A DNA stretch of 63,750 nucleotides, counting the filler, from Squatina squatina (lineage: Eukaryota), in the NCBI GenBank assembly GCA_031763465.1. It is 3 parts of 3 records of this genome, joined end to end, with 100 filler letters (N's around TTAATTAATTAA, not from the genome) between each part and the next. Parts side by side here need not be neighbours in the genome. Positions count along the whole stretch, not along the records: positions 1 to 31,297 come from JARFOE010000115.1; 2 more parts are not named here. The stretch is one strand, 5' to 3'. Position 1 is the first letter of the stretch, and each line of letters opens with the position of its first letter. The notes beneath the pieces were generated by a model. It saw only the letters and a list, made by a program, of their open reading frames with translations. It did not search any database and was not told the DNA's origin. Made by a program: the position numbers and the translations under genes. Below are positions 20,551 through 29,373 of the stretch, piece after piece.

Positions 20551-21121
20551 AAGAAACCTGTGGCCTTTCCTGGTTGCCAAGGCTTCTTGCACAGTACCCT
20601 TCCTCACTGAACCATCACGTTCCATCAAGAAAGGAAGTACGCGTCAAATTATTCACCTCACGTTCTCTGTGGCGATTGTTTATTTCCTTTTTTCTACATC
20701 AGCATGAGCACTTTTTCTGGCATTGATGAAATCTCTGGTCCTGGAATGCAAGTGCCCTGCTAATTATTCTCAGTCGGAGTCTGAACACTGAATTATTTAT
20801 CTCAGGCTGCACATAACGCATTAAGATTTTGGAATGGGTAAGTTGTTTCAACTTGAACTGCTCTCCCTCGTTCCATGCAGCAGGCTCAATAAGCATTGTA
20901 AAACTGTCAGCTGAGATTTAACTTGGTAAAGAAAGGACTGCCCTTTGAAAAAGCATCCTCGGGATGTCCCAAGGTGCCATCACAGCCGATTCATTATTTT
21001 NNNNNNNNNNNNNNNNNNNNNNNNNNNNNNNNNNNNNNNNNNNNNNNNNNNNNNNNNNNNNNNNNNNNNNNNNNNNNNNNNNNNNNNNNNNNNNNNNNNN
21101 GTGTTTCTTTTTCATTTCTAG

Positions 21122-21773
21122 GCAATGAACAATACATGCTTGGACATCAATCCTCAGCTGGAGAAGTACTACCTTCCAATCATGTATGCAGTGGAGTTTC
21201 TCTTCGGACTTGTGGGCAACCTTTCTGTGATCTGGGGCTACATATTCTGTCTGAAGGAATGGAAGTGCAGCAACATCTACCTTTTCAATCTTTCCATCAC
21301 AGACCTGATAGTCATTTGCACCCTTCCCATGCTAGTATCCTACTATAGCAGAGGCAACAGATGGATTTTTGGTGTGACAATGTGTGAGATAAACAGATAC
21401 CTCCTTCACACTAACATGTACACAAGCGTCTTATTTCTCGCGTGTATCAGTTTCGATCGGTACCTGCTGGTGAGGAACCCGCTGAAACTTCACCTGTTTC
21501 AGAAAAAGTGGAATGCCATTATCATCTGTGTCGGTATCTGGGTATTTGTTACTTTGGAGTTAATTCCCATATTCCGTTTTATCAGTGCTGATGATAGCCC
21601 TAGCGCAGAGAATGCCTCCTTCCTCCAGTGTACTGATTATGCCAGCTCAGGAAATGCCTCCCGGAGTCTGATTTACAGTATGTACCTCACAGTTTTTGGT
21701 TATCTCGTGCCACTCTGCATCATGCTTATCTGCTACATCCAAACTGCCCGCGTCCTGAAGAAAATCAAGCGAC
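21122..21773 (+). CDS. SUCNR1: Succinate receptor 1 (GPR91) paralogue A, TM1-TM5; 3' end lost in gap
   Basis: LEKYYL..YAVEF, GYIFCLKEWKCSNIYLFNLS, NRYLLHTNMYTS, FDRY, FVTLELIP, CTDYASSG: SUCNR1-specific motifs. Acceptor tttctag|GCA ATG in phase 0. Confidence 0.92.
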
Positions 21774-22212
21774 NNNNNNNNNNNNNNNNNNNNNNNNNNN
21801 NNNNNNNNNNNNNNNNNNNNNNNNNNNNNNNNNNNNNNNNNNNNNNNNNNNNNNNNNNNNNNNNNNNNNNNNNCAGTTCCATACTTAGTCATGCCATAAG
21901 GTGGTTGATTATAGACAGTATAATGATAAGGATGCAAAGCTGGAGCAAGGGAAAATAGGAAAGTGTGCTACTCCACCGGCTCACTGACAAGCACCAAAAG
22001 TGCAGACCAGGAATAGGGTTACTCACACTGTTGATGCAAAGAATAGAAAAAAAGAAGGAATTCCTTTAAAATAGCATCATCAACTCTGACCTTCAAACTG
22101 TTAAGGTAGCAAATCTTTGAAGTTTGCTTCAAACTCTTTAAAGCTGCCATTTGATTATAATTGTTTCTATGAACATCCACTTGCGCTCTGTAAAATAAAT
22201 ATTTATAAGGTG

Positions 22213-22362
22213 CAAAAGCAAAATACTGCAGATGCTGGAATCTGAAATAAAAACTGGTTCGCCAGTTCTGATGAAGGGTCATCGACCTGAAATGTTAACT
22301 CTGTTTCTCTCTCCACAGATGCTGTCTGACCTGGTGAGTATTTCCAGCATTCTCTGTTTTTA
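22213..22362 (+). mobile_element. Short element with inverted ends and a hammerhead-like core (Penelope-related)
   Basis: Ends aaaatactgcagatgctggaa / ttccagcattctctgtttt; centre agtt-CTGATGA-agggtc-atc-gacct-GAAA-tgtt-aact; partial second copy at 42595-42663. Confidence 0.65.
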
Positions 22363-22461
22363 CTTATGAGCTGCAATTGTTTTATGCTAATTTTTCTAGA
22401 TTGTGATCATTTTCATTATCTGACGATATTCCTATTCACCTGTTTTTGTTTGAAATTCTAG

Positions 22462-23412
22462 GAAATGAATGAGACTTGCTCAAACATTAATCAGATCCTG
22501 GAAACCTACTACCTCACAACAATGTACAGCATTGAGTTCATCTTAGGCTTGATAGGGAATGTCACTGTGATATGTGGCTACATATTCTGCCTGAAGGAGT
22601 GGAGGTGCAGCAACATTTATCTCTTCAATCTTTCCATTTCGGATCTCATCTTTGTCTGTACACTTCCAATGTTTGTGGACTATTATGCCAATAATAAAAG
22701 TTGGGTATTTGGCAATCTTCTCTGCAAGCTGATCAGATATATTCTCTACACCAACTTGTACTTAAGCATGCTGTTCCTGGCCTGCATTAGCATTGATCGA
22801 TACTTGCTGGTGAGCAACCCATTGAGGCTCCACGTCTTCCAAAGGAAGAGGACTGCCGTCTTCATTTGTATCGGTCTGTGGATTTTTGTCACCTTGGAAA
22901 TACTCCCCATGCTGACTTTCATTGGTGCCGAAGGTAACAGTACCATCATTAAGTGCGTCGATTATGCGAGTTCTGGGAATCCTAGTCATAATCTGATTTA
23001 CAACATGTGTCTCACCATGTTCGGGTTCCTGCTCCCGATGTGCATCATGGGAGTCTTCTGCGTGAAAACCGCATGCAGGTTAAATAAATTAAATCAAGAG
23101 CAAACTCGGAATGTTACAATGGATAAACCTCTCACGCTAGTTATATTGGCAATTGTTATTTTCTCTGTATTTTTCACTCCTTTTCATATCTTGCGAACTG
23201 TCCGAGTGGTGTCCAGATTGAAAGTTATCAGCCTTTCAGATTGCACTATTGAGGCCATAAAGGCTGCTTATGCTATTTCAAGGCCTATAGCATTTCTTAG
23301 TGCAATTACAAATCCAATTTTCTACTTCCTTTCTGGAGACAAATTCAGGGAAAGAATTACAACCTGTATTAAGTCTCATTGGTTCAGAAATGTCCTGCGA
23401 CGTGCAAGATAA
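22462..23412 (+). CDS. SUCNR1: Succinate receptor 1 paralogue B, complete 7TM coding exon
   Basis: 315-aa ORF with all TMs, IDRY, CVDYASSG, DKPLTLVILA, TPFHILR, ISRPIAF, NPIFYFLSGDKFRE; acceptor aaattctag|GAA ATG. Confidence 0.95.
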   Translation, partial: EMNETCSNINQILETYYLTTMYSIEFILGLIGNVTVICGYIFCLKEWRCSNIYLFNLSISDLIFVCTLPMFVDYYANNKSWVFGNLLCKLIRYILYTNLYLSMLFLACISIDRYLLVSNPLRLHVFQRKRTAVFICIGLWIFVTLEILPMLTFIGAEGNSTIIKCVDYASSGNPSHNLIYNMCLTMFGFLLPMCIMGVFCVKTACRLNKLNQEQTRNVTMDKPLTLVILAIVIFSVFFTPFHILRTVRVVSRLKVISLSDCTIEAIKAAYAISRPIAFLSAITNPIFYFLSGDKFRERITTCIKSHWFRNVLRRAR

Positions 23413-23965
23413 GTCTGCACTAATAACCGAGGCCTGTCACTTTGGGAAGAGACAGGGCTTTGTAGCCTTAGTTTGGAGAGTGATGGCCCCTGATTACTCA
23501 AGAAAGTACAAAGTTTAATTATTCGGCCACATGTAACCTGGCAATACCTGAGGAGATATGAATTGTTCTGCAGATTCACTGAGGTAGGTTTTCAAATGCG
23601 CCATACCCGGGTCTAAAACTTGTAGTCGCGGGTTAGCCAGTCGTCATGGAAACTGGTCGTGCCAAATGAATAAAAGGGGCCCAAATCTCGACCCTACTTT
23701 GGAGGCTGCTTCCTAGCCAGTGTCTGTAGCTTGAGTTATAAGGAAAGACCGGGGAAACTAAAACAAGGAATTTTTCCTGGAGCTGGTCTTCCTCCACCAC
23801 CACACTTCAACCAGAATTGTGGCAGAAACCAGTAGATGGAAAATCATGGGCATCCTGCCCATGATTTCCAGATATATGCAACGCCTGCTGACAATAACAA
23901 CTCAGAAAAACAGATGCAAATATATTGGTATCATTACTGGATGGTTATTGCATTGTTGGGGTAAT

Positions 23966-24668
23966 TAGAAACATAGAAAATAGGAGCAGGATTAGGCCAT
24001 TTGGCCCTTCGAGTATGCTCCGCCATTCACTACGACCATGGCTGAACCTCTAGCTCATTGCCATATTCCCGCTTTCTCCCCTTACCCCCTGATGTCTTTG
24101 GTATCTAAAAATCTATTTATCTCCTTCTTGAATATACTCAGTGACCCAGCCTTTGCAGCCTTCTGTGGTAGAGAATTCCACAGGTTCACTACCCTCTGGG
24201 TGAAGACATTTTTCCTCATCTCAGTCCTAAATGACTTCCCCTGTATCCTGAGACTGTGTCCCCTGGTCCTGGACTCCCCAACTAGGGGAAACATCCTCCC
24301 TGCATCGAGTCTGTCTAGCCCTGTCAGAATGAGATCACCTCTCCTTCTAAACCCTAGTGAATACAGGCCCACTCGATCCATTCTCTCCTCATACGACAGT
24401 CCTGCCTTCCTAGGTATCAGTCCGGTGAACCTTCTCTGCATTCCTCTATGGCAAGTATATCCTTCTTAAGTAGGGAGACCAAAGCTGCACGCAATACTCC
24501 AGGTGTGGCCTCACCAAGGACCTATATAATTGCAGTAAGACATCCTTACTTCTGTACTCATATCATCTTGCAATGAAGGCCAAAATACCACTTGCCTTCC
24601 TAACTGCTTGCTGCACTTGCCAGTTTGCTTTCATTGACTGGTGTACAAGGACACCCAGGTCCCTTTGC
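23966..24668 (-). mobile_element. CR1 LINE 3' end
   Basis: QRRFTGLIP..GLSYEER..RTRGHSLRI..RVVNLWNSLP; (tagaaaca) tail. Confidence 0.92.
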
Positions 24669-24859
24669 NNNNNNNNNNNNNNNNNNNNNNNNNNNNNNNN
24701 NNNNNNNNNNNNNNNNNNNNNNNNNNNNNNNNNNNNNNNNNNNNNNNNNNNNNNNNNNNNNNNNNNNNACCCAACATCATTCCAAAAGCAAATGATTGGG
24801 CCATCATCACGCTCCTGTTTGAGACCTTGCTGTGCACAAATTGGCTACCTTGCTTCCTG

Positions 24860-24975
24860 CAGACAGTACTGCACTGGGAGCCTCGGCCCAGACTGTGTGC
24901 TGAAGTCTCTGGAGTGGGACTACGAATCCACAGCCTTTGACTCTGAGGCAAGAGTCCGACCACTGAGCCATGGCT
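24860..24975 (-). mobile_element. DeuSINE head fragment
   Basis: Reverse complement gives tggctcagtgg..gattcgtagtcccactccagagactt. Confidence 0.7.
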
Positions 24976-25068
24976 GGCTCCCTTTTTGGTCAGTTCTTCA
25001 ATGCATTTTAATCACGCGTCTCTATGTATCTCTTTCAGCTAACTCTGTTACTTGTTTGTGATTTCTAG

Positions 25069-25587
25069 GGNNNNNNNNNNGGACGAGCCTTGCAGAGATA
25101 TTAATGGTGACGTTGAAAAGTACTATCTCGCGACAATGTACATCATTGAGTTCATAGTGGGGCTGATAGGGAACCTCATTGTGATAACCGGCTATATCTT
25201 CTGCCTGAAGAAATGGAAATGCAGCAACATCTATCTCTTCTTCCTCTCTGTCTCTGATCTCCTTTTTATTTGTACGCTTCCGATGTTTGCCATCCAATAC
25301 ATAAATAACAGCGAATGGTTCTACAGCGACCTGAGCTGTAAGTTCACTCGGTATTTCCTCAACTCTAACCTCTACTTGAGTGTCCTCTACCTGACCTGCA
25401 TTAGTGTTGATCGATATTTGCTGGTGAGAAACCCAACGAAGCTCCACTGGTTCCAGAAAAAGCAGACAGCTGTCGCAATCTGTTTAATTTTGTGGGTCTT
25501 TGTCACCGTGGAGCTGATACCCATGTTCACTTTCATTGGCCCCAAGAACATCACAGATAACGACGAACAAATTATCGTATGTGTTGA
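25069..25587 (+). CDS. SUCNR1: Succinate receptor 1 paralogue C, TM1-ECL2; cut by gaps
   Basis: VEKYYLATMYIIEF, GYIFCLKKWKCSNIYL, VDRY, FVTVELIP; acceptor gatttctag|GG just before the 10-N gap. Confidence 0.9.
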
Positions 25588-25687: not shown

Positions 25688-26494
25688 CTGTCAAACATAT
25701 TGGCTCTCCTTGTGTTCTACCGTATCGCCAATAGGAAGAACGCCAGCACCGTCTACCTAATGAACCTTGCTGTCGCTGACCTCCTCTTTGTCCTCAGCCT
25801 ACCCTTGCGGATTGTCTACTACCTAAGAAATGGCGACTGGCCATTCAGAGATTTTCTGTGCAGGACCTCCACGTACATTTTCTACGTCAGTATGTACTGT
25901 AGTATTTTCTTTCTCGCTTGTTTGAGCATATCCCGCTATTTGTCAGTTGCGCATCATGTTTGGAATCAAAGAGTGTTCACTTTCCGGCGGTGCATAACAG
26001 TGTGCGTCGGTGTCTGGATATTTGTCTGTACGGCTGCAGCCCCCTTCATCTTAACAGGAAGCCAGGCCTTCAATGGTAAAATCAAATGCTTTGAGCCCGT
26101 GAATGTAGCTTCCTGGAGTCGCATCGCAAAAATGAACTACTTTGCACTCACCGTTGGGTTCCTCATCCCTTTCGCAATCGTTCTCATCTGTTATTCTCTG
26201 TTGATAAAACATTTAATGGGAGTCAGTTGGGGGACGAAGCGAGTCAAGAGGGATGTGGCCATGACTGTGTTGGTTTTGGGAGTGTTTTTTATCTGCTTCC
26301 TTCCCTACCATGTACAAAGGACGGTGCACTTGCATTTTCTGGTGCACCACCACAATAACTGCGACCTTGAAAATATCCTGCGCAAGTCTGTTGTGACTAC
26401 ATTGTGCCTGGCTGTTGCCAACAGCTGTTTCGATCCCCTGCTTTATATTTTTGTTGGGCAAGGCTGTCAAGGGATATGGAGCAAAGACGGGTAA
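25688..26494 (+). CDS. Cysteinyl leukotriene receptor family member (CysLT1-like, possibly the fish cysltr3 lineage); N-terminus lost in gap
   Basis: LPLRIVYY, YVSMYCSIFF, KCFEP, PYHVQRTVHLHFL, KSVVTTLCLA, CFDPLLY are CysLT receptor hallmarks. Confidence 0.85.
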   Translation: MSNILALLVFYRIANRKNASTVYLMNLAVADLLFVLSLPLRIVYYLRNGDWPFRDFLCRTSTYIFYVSMYCSIFFLACLSISRYLSVAHHVWNQRVFTFRRCITVCVGVWIFVCTAAAPFILTGSQAFNGKIKCFEPVNVASWSRIAKMNYFALTVGFLIPFAIVLICYSLLIKHLMGVSWGTKRVKRDVAMTVLVLGVFFICFLPYHVQRTVHLHFLVHHHNNCDLENILRKSVVTTLCLAVANSCFDPLLYIFVGQGCQGIWSKDG

Positions 26495-28610: not shown

Positions 28611-29079
28611 TCTTCAGTCTCGTGGCGTACATGGCCCCATCGTCCCGCAGCACGTCGTACTCGCAGGTCACAATGTAGGCCTGCGGCAGCGCCTTGAGCT
28701 TCTCGTCCCCCGCCAGGAGGGGGGCGGCCCTCGGGTCGAAGACCCCGGGGACCCTCGCGGAGGAGTCCGTGTTCTCGCGGCCTGGGACGGCGTACTTGTA
28801 GTCCTTCCTGAATTTCTCCGGCAGGAGGACGCTCCAGTTCACAAAATCGCTCAAGCCCCTCGATTCGAGGGTGGTGTGGCTGTTGGTCATCATGTTGTTC
28901 AGCAGCGACTTGTCGCAGCTAAAATATTCACTCCAAAACCTGACCATTAAGGACTTGGGGAGGATAGGCATGTTCTCATTTTGCTGGTAGGAAGGAGTGT
29001 TAAAGTCAATGGTCTGAAGTGCAGGGTAGACTAATGCTTGAACCTTGATCTCAACTTCAACCCCTGGATCCTCCTGGAT
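28611..29079 (-). CDS. AADAC: Arylacetamide deacetylase family esterase, last coding exon (3' end in gap)
   Basis: QALVYPALQ..PSYQQN..KSLMVRFWSEYF..FVNWSVLLPE..RAAPLLA..TCEYDVLRDDG (catalytic Asp region); acceptor ttgtcttgcag|ATC. AADAC versus AADACL2-type is not resolvable by eye. Confidence 0.88.
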
Positions 29080-29373
29080 CTGCAAGACAATCCCTTTATT
29101 ATTAAGTATTCAAAGAATTACACAAAGGTATTAACATAGACATGTTTGTATGATAATATTTTGTAATCTTAATCACGAGACCATTTTCCAGGCTAGATAG
29201 AAAAAATTGCAAATCTGAAACTGAAGCAGAAAATGTCAAATACCCAACAAGCCCATCACTTAGATCTGACTAANNNNNNNNNNNNNNNNNNNNNNNNNNN
29301 NNNNNNNNNNNNNNNNNNNNNNNNNNNNNNNNNNNNNNNNNNNNNNNNNNNNNNNNNNNNNNNNNNNNNNNNN

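What the first reader, a model, noticed from the sequence alone, without database searches (positions are those of the whole stretch)
21122..25587. Three SUCNR1 paralogues with different residues at a key succinate-binding position
Seen: three divergent SUCNR1-type exons, too different to be haplotypes. At TM3 they read NRYLLHTN (A), IRYILYTN (B) and TRYFLNSN (C). Known: human SUCNR1 is single-copy, with R3.29, H3.33, R6.55 and R7.39 implicated in succinate activation. Only A keeps His3.33 (B has Tyr, C has Asn); B also has Phe for Tyr6.51 but keeps all three Arg. Inference: a lineage-specific family of carboxylate sensors tuned to different metabolites.
Basis: partly seen in the sequence, partly recalled or inferred. 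Interest (0 to 1): 0.72.

Follow-up and report, generated by a model that had tools for sequence, protein, structure and literature searches.

The report
Three ancient shark succinate-receptor copies
Sharks and rays carry three old copies of the succinate-receptor gene, a triplication already reported; one keeps the standard binding pocket and two carry fixed changes in the pocket and in an activation switch, so they likely sense succinate-like acids with different strength or signalling, which is untested.

Summary
Three SUCNR1 exons (55-63% identical) read His, Tyr and Asn at 3.33; B has Phe6.51 and all three Arg. They are not haplotypes and not peculiar to this genome: each falls in its own shark-and-ray clade beside a sawshark orthologue, and the triplication is already reported in a Squalomix preprint. 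Not found in print: 3.33 is fixed by clade (A His 17 of 18, B Tyr 12 of 12, C Asn 10 of 10), and B and C also lack the activation tyrosine 5.58; C adds Asp5.46 and Tyr7.43. The carboxylate anchors (Y1.39, Y2.64, R/K3.29, R6.55, R6.58, R7.39) are kept in all three clades, so retuned dicarboxylate sensing is likelier than new ligand classes. Against the ligand-switch reading: one cryo-EM model gives His3.33 no contact with succinate, horses carry Tyr3.33 in SUCNR1, pocket enrichment of fixed differences is not significant (p 0.09), and Phe6.51 is private to this assembly. A and C are cut by assembly gaps; their 3' halves were not found, but orthologues are whole. No pharmacology exists.

The parts
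21122..21773 (+). SUCNR1 copy A, main coding exon, TM1-TM5, cut by an assembly gap; ancestral-type pocket
   Evidence: groups with Pristiophorus P0023; AG acceptor at 21120-21121
21407..21409 (+). Copy A His3.33 codon
   Evidence: His in 17 of 18 A-clade proteins
21734..21736 (+). Copy A Tyr5.58 codon (activation switch kept)
   Evidence: read; Tyr in 16 of 18 A-clade proteins
22462..23412 (+). SUCNR1 copy B, whole main coding exon (316 codons, 7 TM, stop)
   Evidence: groups with Pristiophorus P0001; AG acceptor at 22460-22461
22747..22749 (+). Copy B Tyr3.33 codon
   Evidence: Tyr in 12 of 12 other B proteins
23002..23004 (+). Copy B Asn5.39 codon (Ser in A, C and 126 of 126 lobe-fin/tetrapod rows)
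23059..23061 (+). Copy B Cys5.58 codon (activation tyrosine lost)
   Evidence: read; Cys in 12 of 12 other B proteins
23182..23184 (+). Copy B Phe6.51 codon, private to this assembly (recent change or consensus error)
25069..25587 (+). SUCNR1 copy C, main coding exon, TM1-TM4 and part of ECL2, with a 10-N gap at 25071-25080 and cut by a 100-N gap
   Evidence: groups with Pristiophorus P0017; AG acceptor at 25067-25068
25241..25243 (+). Copy C Phe2.45 codon (Asn in A, B and tetrapods)
   Evidence: read; Phe in 8 of 10 C proteins, Asn lost in the clade
25361..25363 (+). Copy C Asn3.33 codon
   Evidence: Asn in 10 of 10 other C proteins
28612..29109 (-). AADAC exon, neighbour of the SUCNR1 cluster (context, not part of the receptors)

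Best explanation
These are three orthologues of an old triplet of succinate-receptor (SUCNR1) genes shared by sharks and rays: copy A keeps the standard pocket and is likely the ordinary succinate receptor, while copies B and C keep the carboxylate anchors but have fixed changes in the pocket and activation path, so they likely still bind small dicarboxylates with different potency, selectivity or signalling strength. Shown: three clades, each with sharks and rays; shared anchors; clade-fixed residues. Inferred history: a first duplication split A from the B/C ancestor, on whose stem His3.33 became Tyr, Tyr5.58 was lost and (by parsimony) Leu2.60, Ile3.40 and Asn7.45 changed; C then took Asn3.33, Asp5.46, Tyr7.43, Phe2.45 and Gln2.63. 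Inferred mechanism: one carboxylate is still held by R7.39, Y2.64 and Y1.39; the residues near the second carboxylate and the linker (3.33, 2.60, 7.43) differ, which would shift the rank order among succinate, malate, oxaloacetate, itaconate and oxoglutarate; loss of the R3.50-Y5.58 bond would lower or reroute G-protein activation.
For: Trees: each window copy is sister to a Pristiophorus protein at 80-87% best identity, in three clades with full or near-full support; the three copies as one clade are rejected (p-AU 7.6e-7). Eleven named species yield all three types (seven of the assignments by 90% cluster membership and motif, not by tree). Anchors Y1.39, Y2.64, D45.52, R6.55, R6.58, Y7.35, R7.39 are invariant in 40 of 40 elasmobranch proteins, 3.29 is R or K. 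3.33: A His 17 of 18, B Tyr 12 of 12, C Asn 10 of 10, lobe-fin/tetrapod His 124 of 126; it is the only column aligned to the rat reference where the three clades are fixed for three residues. Y5.58: A 16 of 18, B 0 of 12, C 0 of 10, tetrapod set 123 of 126. Of 127 columns conserved in the tetrapod set, A has lost 13, B 18, C 23 (counted). B and C are well conserved within clade (mean 76% and 79%, against 67% for A), so they are under selection. Literature: His103 mutation abolished activation (review PMC3355999, passage); His3.33 holds a carboxylate in OXGR1, and changes at 3.32, ECL2 and 7.43 shift SUCNR1 towards itaconate (PMC13372822, passages; PMC12714840, passages); R120-Y207(5.58) bond stabilises the active state (10.1101/2024.02.03.578529, passage).
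Against: No functional data at all. One cryo-EM model finds no direct contact of H103 or R99 with succinate, and a modelling paper treats His103 as part of a structural plug shared with P2Y receptors (PMC5699910, passages); P2RY1 and OXGR1-like outgroups also have His3.33. Tyr3.33 occurs in horse, donkey and zebra SUCNR1 (4 of 4 Equus proteins), in the Narcine A copy and in 2 of 3 Callorhinchus genes; a caecilian has Phe, so the change may simply be tolerated. Clade-fixed differences are not significantly enriched in the pocket (4 of 14 pocket columns, 10 of 92 others, Fisher p 0.088). Tyr5.58 is also absent from 3 of 3 teleost SUCNR1 proteins examined and 2 of 18 A proteins. The residues that separate OXGR1 from SUCNR1 most clearly (3.32, DRY, NPxxY) are SUCNR1-like in all three. 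The 3' parts of A and C are not in this assembly, so their TM5-7 residues are taken from orthologues.
Confidence: 0.52

Rival explanations
1. All three are succinate receptors with much the same pharmacology, kept because they divided tissues or stages of expression; the fixed residues are tolerated, mutually compensating changes.
For: All direct contacts of the cryo-EM model (R7.39, Y2.64, Y1.39, ECL2 main chain) are kept; Tyr3.33 in Equus SUCNR1; the three Callorhinchus genes retrieved have no His3.33 at all; pocket enrichment not significant; teleosts lack Tyr5.58.
Against: His3.33 is kept in 124 of 126 lobe-fin/tetrapod proteins, and its mutation abolished activation in the first study; B and C differ at several pocket and switch positions at once and hold them fixed across sharks and rays.
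Confidence: 0.3
2. B or C has switched to another class of ligand, for instance an amino-dicarboxylate such as aspartate for C (new Asp5.46 as counter-charge) or a ketone body.
For: C is fixed for Asn3.33, Asp5.46, Tyr7.43, Gln2.63 and Phe2.60 (10 of 10 each); an acidic residue replacing an almost invariant Gly (125 of 126) is hard to explain for a pure dicarboxylate; L-aspartate is inactive at the human receptor, so a change would be needed. That 5.46 faces TM3 and the deep pocket is recalled class A geometry, not measured here.
Against: Four Arg and both Tyr anchors are kept, unlike the single-Arg pocket of the monocarboxylate receptors HCAR2/3; Asp5.46 may instead pair with Asn3.33 or Tyr3.37 inside the helix bundle; no coordinates were available to check.
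Confidence: 0.1
3. B and C bind dicarboxylates but signal weakly or differently (biased, partial or constitutive receptors) because the activation path has changed, the pocket changes being secondary.
For: Loss of Tyr5.58 in 22 of 22 B and C proteins, Ile3.40 to Met/Val, Asn7.45 to Ser in 20 of 22, Pro7.50 to Ser in 6 of 12 B, Asn2.45 lost in C; these positions are named in the activation path.
Against: DRY, N7.49, Y7.53, P5.50, F6.44 are kept; teleost SUCNR1 lacks Tyr5.58 as well.
Confidence: 0.07
4. Assembly artefact, haplotypes, or A and C are pseudogenes.
For: The scaffold is gap-rich, an unrelated receptor fragment sits in frame after C, and the 3' halves of A and C were not found in G000.
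Against: 55-63% identity; separate orthologue clades; whole reading frames in orthologues; two runs of related organisms hold separate contigs for all three, running past the breaks; no stop or frameshift in the parts present.
Confidence: 0.01

Closest known systems
Elasmobranch SUCNR1 tandem duplicates (Squalomix preprint 10.1101/2025.06.08.657570, Fig. 5B; RefSeq 'succinate receptor 1-like' genes)
   Same: Three copies from two duplications in the cartilaginous-fish lineage; the window's copies are orthologues of annotated genes of 11 or more sharks and rays.
   Different: The passages read give copy number and phylogeny only and call for future work; they name no residues. The figure and Table S6A were not seen.
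Mammalian SUCNR1/GPR91 (PDB 6ibb, 8wog, 8ykw)
   Same: Best sequence and fold matches; anchors Y1.39, Y2.64, R3.29, D45.52, R6.55, R6.58, Y7.35, R7.39 and L3.32 kept; neighbour AADAC.
   Different: B and C lack His3.33 and Tyr5.58 and have Phe2.60; B has Asn5.39; C has Asp5.46, Tyr7.43, Phe2.45. Ray A copies have Lys3.29 (6 of 18 A proteins).
OXGR1/GPR99
   Same: Same polar dicarboxylate anchors; Phe6.51 of window copy B matches OXGR1 F257.
   Different: OXGR1 keeps His3.33 and has F3.32, A7.43, FRY and NLxxY; the shark copies have L3.32, F/Y7.43, DRY and NPxxY, and fall outside the OXGR1-like rows in the tree.

Membership tests
SUCNR1/GPR91 (by descent) | Rhodopsin-family 7TM receptor whose closest solved relatives are SUCNR1 | tested here: met
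   PF00001 for all three; B: top seven PDB sequences are SUCNR1, E 7e-100 against 7e-53 for P2RY1/OXGR1; model of the C orthologue P0017: top eleven folds are SUCNR1
SUCNR1/GPR91 (by descent) | Groups with bony-vertebrate SUCNR1 apart from OXGR1 and P2RY1 | tested here: met
   99-100 support in the 45-row tree; the paddlefish row falls outside this group on a long branch
SUCNR1/GPR91 (by descent) | Linked to AADAC | tested here: met
   AADAC exon 3 kb from C in the scaffold; AADAC and A, B, C share record lengths in Heterodontus, Mustelus and Heptranchias (inferred from equal lengths). The human linkage is recalled.
SUCNR1/GPR91 (by function) | Carboxylate anchors R7.39, Y2.64, Y1.39, R3.29, R6.55, R6.58, D45.52 | tested here: met
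   Met in window B and in 40 of 40 orthologues (3.29 Lys in 6 ray A proteins); TM6-7 positions of window A and C are missing
SUCNR1/GPR91 (by function) | His3.33 and Tyr5.58 | tested here: not met
   Met in A only; absent from B and C clades
SUCNR1/GPR91 (by function) | Activation of Gi/Gq by succinate | not testable with these tools
   Needs cell assays
OXGR1/GPR99 | F3.32, A7.43, FRY, NLxxY | tested here: not met
   L3.32, F/Y7.43, DRY, NP(S)xxY in all clades (features)
HCAR2/3-type monocarboxylate receptor | Pocket with a single arginine | tested here: not met
   Four basic pocket residues kept; feature

The most novel reading that the evidence does not exclude
Copy C is a de-orphanable receptor of sharks and rays that was remodelled from the succinate receptor to read an amine-bearing dicarboxylate such as aspartate (Asn3.33, Asp5.46, Tyr7.43, no Tyr5.58), with B tuned to a third metabolite: a three-member metabolite-sensing panel kept since before sharks and rays split.
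Probability: 0.1. Interest if true: 0.7.

Novelty: new member of a known kind. Interest (0 to 1): 0.36.

Why it matters
The triplet is known but uncharacterised. The fixed differences make it a ready natural experiment on a disputed point, whether His3.33 binds succinate or only shapes the pocket, and on how a class A receptor works without Tyr5.58. If B and C have other ligands, they would show how metabolite receptors diversify and what sharks and rays monitor in their unusual intermediary metabolism (recalled: reliance on ketone bodies and amino acids). If not, it is an ordinary retained gene triplet.

Tried and rejected
Search for the missing 3' halves of A and C in G000 with five protein queries: none found; the search scores only the best candidates and the assembly is fragmentary, so this shows nothing about loss. 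The 483-codon frame joining C to 25688-26494 was rejected as a chance join to a CysLT1-like receptor across a gap. Phe6.51 as a paralogue marker: rejected. Dating the duplications against the chimaera split: unresolved; the free tree nests Callorhinchus with B and C, but an elasmobranch-only clade is not rejected (p-AU 0.119; B+C without Callorhinchus 0.22). The first tree rooted inside A through two long outgroups and was replaced. dN/dS between the copies (0.12, 0.22, saturated) shows age and purifying selection only; no test for positive selection was possible without orthologue coding DNA. Expression: no RNA holder listed. The structure model gave no coordinates, so the orientation of Asp5.46 and Asn5.39 was not measured. 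Two Cell Research structure papers were not held; a simulation preprint gave no passage on these positions. Earlier findings of the scan: none. Pfam scan of 56 other frames of 75 or more codons in the first stretch: 0 hits.
Full report
Observation. The window's first stretch is a gap-rich scaffold of short contigs. Three SUCNR1-type exons lie on three different contigs: A 21122-21772 (217 codons, then a 100-N gap), B 22462-23412 (316 codons and stop) and C 25082-25585 (168 codons, then a 100-N gap). Each follows an AG acceptor. All match PF00001, and B's best solved relatives are SUCNR1 structures (E 7e-100; P2RY1 and OXGR1 7e-53). The codons at 3.33 are His, Tyr, Asn; B has Phe6.51 and keeps R3.29, R6.55, R7.39. 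Identities are 55-63% and synonymous sites are near saturation. G000 holds no further SUCNR1-like match and the 3' halves of A and C were not found, so their intactness in this individual is open.

What they are. Two homologue searches (best 120 of 190 and of 328 hits) returned 40 elasmobranch, 3 chimaera and 126 lobe-fin/tetrapod or unnamed tetrapod-like proteins. In a 60-row tree (55 of the 120 hits, the three window copies and two outgroups) and a 45-row hand-picked tree with ray-finned fish, lamprey, OXGR1-like and P2RY1 rows, A, B and C each pair with a Pristiophorus protein inside its own clade of sharks and rays; the host is therefore likely a squalomorph shark. The three window copies as one clade are rejected (p-AU 7.6e-7). 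The cartilaginous-fish genes form one clade (96/96), A being sister to B + C + Callorhinchus (96/93); A with bony-fish SUCNR1 is rejected at p-AU 0.0125. Whether the duplications precede the chimaera split is not settled (p-AU 0.119 and 0.22), and the paddlefish protein, which shares a contig length with paddlefish AADAC, falls outside on a long branch, a warning about the root. Eleven named species yield all three types; Heptranchias has a second B, and Carcharodon, Scyliorhinus canicula and Leucoraja a second A. Two of four runs of related organisms hold separate contigs for all three exons that run past the window's breaks, a third holds A and B, the fourth none of the coding parts. An AADAC exon lies at 28612-29109.

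Prior report. [quoted passage not shown] 5B) and leaves function to future work. Four searches on SUCNR1/GPR91 with shark, elasmobranch, cartilaginous or duplication terms gave this as the only relevant paper; a fifth on orthologues gave nothing relevant. The library lacks most subscription journals, and the preprint's supplements could bear on whether residues were examined.

Residues. Counted over all 169 proteins (numbers for 2.45, 2.60, 2.63, 5.39 and 5.46 are counted from D2.50, Y2.64 and P5.50): Y1.39, Y2.64, L3.32, D45.52, Y6.51, R6.55, R6.58, Y7.35 and R7.39 are invariant in 40 of 40 elasmobranch proteins; 3.29 is Arg except Lys in the 6 ray A proteins. Position 3.33 is His in 17 of 18 A, Tyr in 12 of 12 B, Asn in 10 of 10 C and His in 124 of 126 tetrapod-set rows. 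Of 127 columns conserved in the tetrapod set A has lost 13, B 18 and C 23. Phe6.51 is found in no other protein, and 3 of 3 covering runs read Tyr there (a fourth run gave no cover): it is a recent change or an error.

How much weight 3.33 bears. A review states that mutating His103 abolished activation (PMC3355999, two passages). In OXGR1, His3.33 holds one carboxylate and its Ala mutant loses activity, and SUCNR1 gains itaconate response through changes at 3.32, ECL2 and 7.43 (PMC13372822 and PMC12714840, passages). Against that, one SUCNR1 cryo-EM model finds succinate held by R7.39, Y2.64, Y1.39 and the ECL2 main chain with no direct H103 contact, though H103 moves towards the ligand on activation and R3.50-Y5.58 stabilises the active state (10.1101/2024.02.03.578529, section 16 and passages); a modelling paper places His103 in a structural plug shared with P2Y receptors and reports that human SUCNR1 already answers to oxaloacetate, malate, itaconate and oxoglutarate at lower potency but not to L-aspartate (PMC5699910, passages). 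Natural variation cuts the same way: Tyr3.33 in 4 of 4 Equus proteins, in Narcine A and in 2 of 3 Callorhinchus genes, Phe in Microcaecilia; Ser5.58 in 3 of 3 teleost proteins examined. Clade-fixed differences fall in 4 of 14 fixed pocket columns and 10 of 92 others (p 0.088; the pocket list was drawn from the papers after I had seen the alignment).

Mechanism. Shown: an old, conserved triplet with an intact dicarboxylate anchor set, A conservative, B and C derived at pocket and switch positions together. Inferred: A is the ordinary succinate receptor; B and C still take a small dicarboxylate lying across R7.39/Y2.64/Y1.39 and R3.29, but a changed second site and linker wall shift potency or rank order, and the missing Tyr5.58 changes efficacy or coupling (0.52). 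Rivals: same pharmacology with divided expression (0.30); a true ligand switch, most plausibly an amino-dicarboxylate at C (0.10); mainly altered signalling (0.07); artefact (0.01).

Verdict. Real, ancient and already reported as a triplication; the clade-fixed pattern at 3.33, 5.58, 5.46 and 7.43 was not found in print and makes a cheap, clear assay possible, but nothing here shows different ligands. Interest 0.36.

Noticed in passing
window 25688-26494 (+): A 268-codon fragment of a different GPCR, closest to cysteinyl leukotriene receptor 1, sits right after copy C and in frame with it across the 100-N gap; likely placed there by the scaffolder, and a trap for gene callers (a false 483-codon fusion).
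   Followed up: partly
window 28612-29109 (-): AADAC exon, 75-85% identical to shark and ray AADAC; lies tail to tail with the receptors in this scaffold.
   Followed up: partly
P0089, P0170-P0172 (Equus): Horse, donkey and zebra SUCNR1 have Tyr3.33 where rhinoceros keeps His; Microcaecilia has Phe. Natural test cases for the role of His3.33.
   Followed up: partly
P0031, P0174, P0177 (Callorhinchus): The chimaera has its own three recent copies reading Tyr, Asn, Tyr at 3.33, none with His; the Asn copy also has Gln for Arg7.39, and all have Ala4.56 and Gly5.58. Asn3.33 thus seems to have arisen twice, or by conversion.
   Followed up: partly
P0039, P0045, P0121-P0124: All six ray A proteins have Lys for Arg3.29 and lie on a long branch; the Narcine one also has Tyr3.33.
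   Followed up: no
P0005 (Heptranchias): A second B-type gene on a record of different length from the A/B/C cluster, so possibly a transposed copy; it has Asp7.49.
   Followed up: no
P0201 (Polyodon): Paddlefish 'SUCR1' has Tyr3.32 and branches outside all other SUCNR1 although it shares a contig length with AADAC; long-branch effect or an older tandem paralogue.
   Followed up: no
P0197, P0198, P0202 (teleosts): Teleost SUCNR1-like proteins keep His3.33 but have Ser5.58.
   Followed up: no
window 22210-22362 and 23966-24668: High-copy repeats flank copy B (very high contig depth); the second has a LINE-like reading frame on the minus strand (label recalled, no Pfam hit).
   Followed up: no
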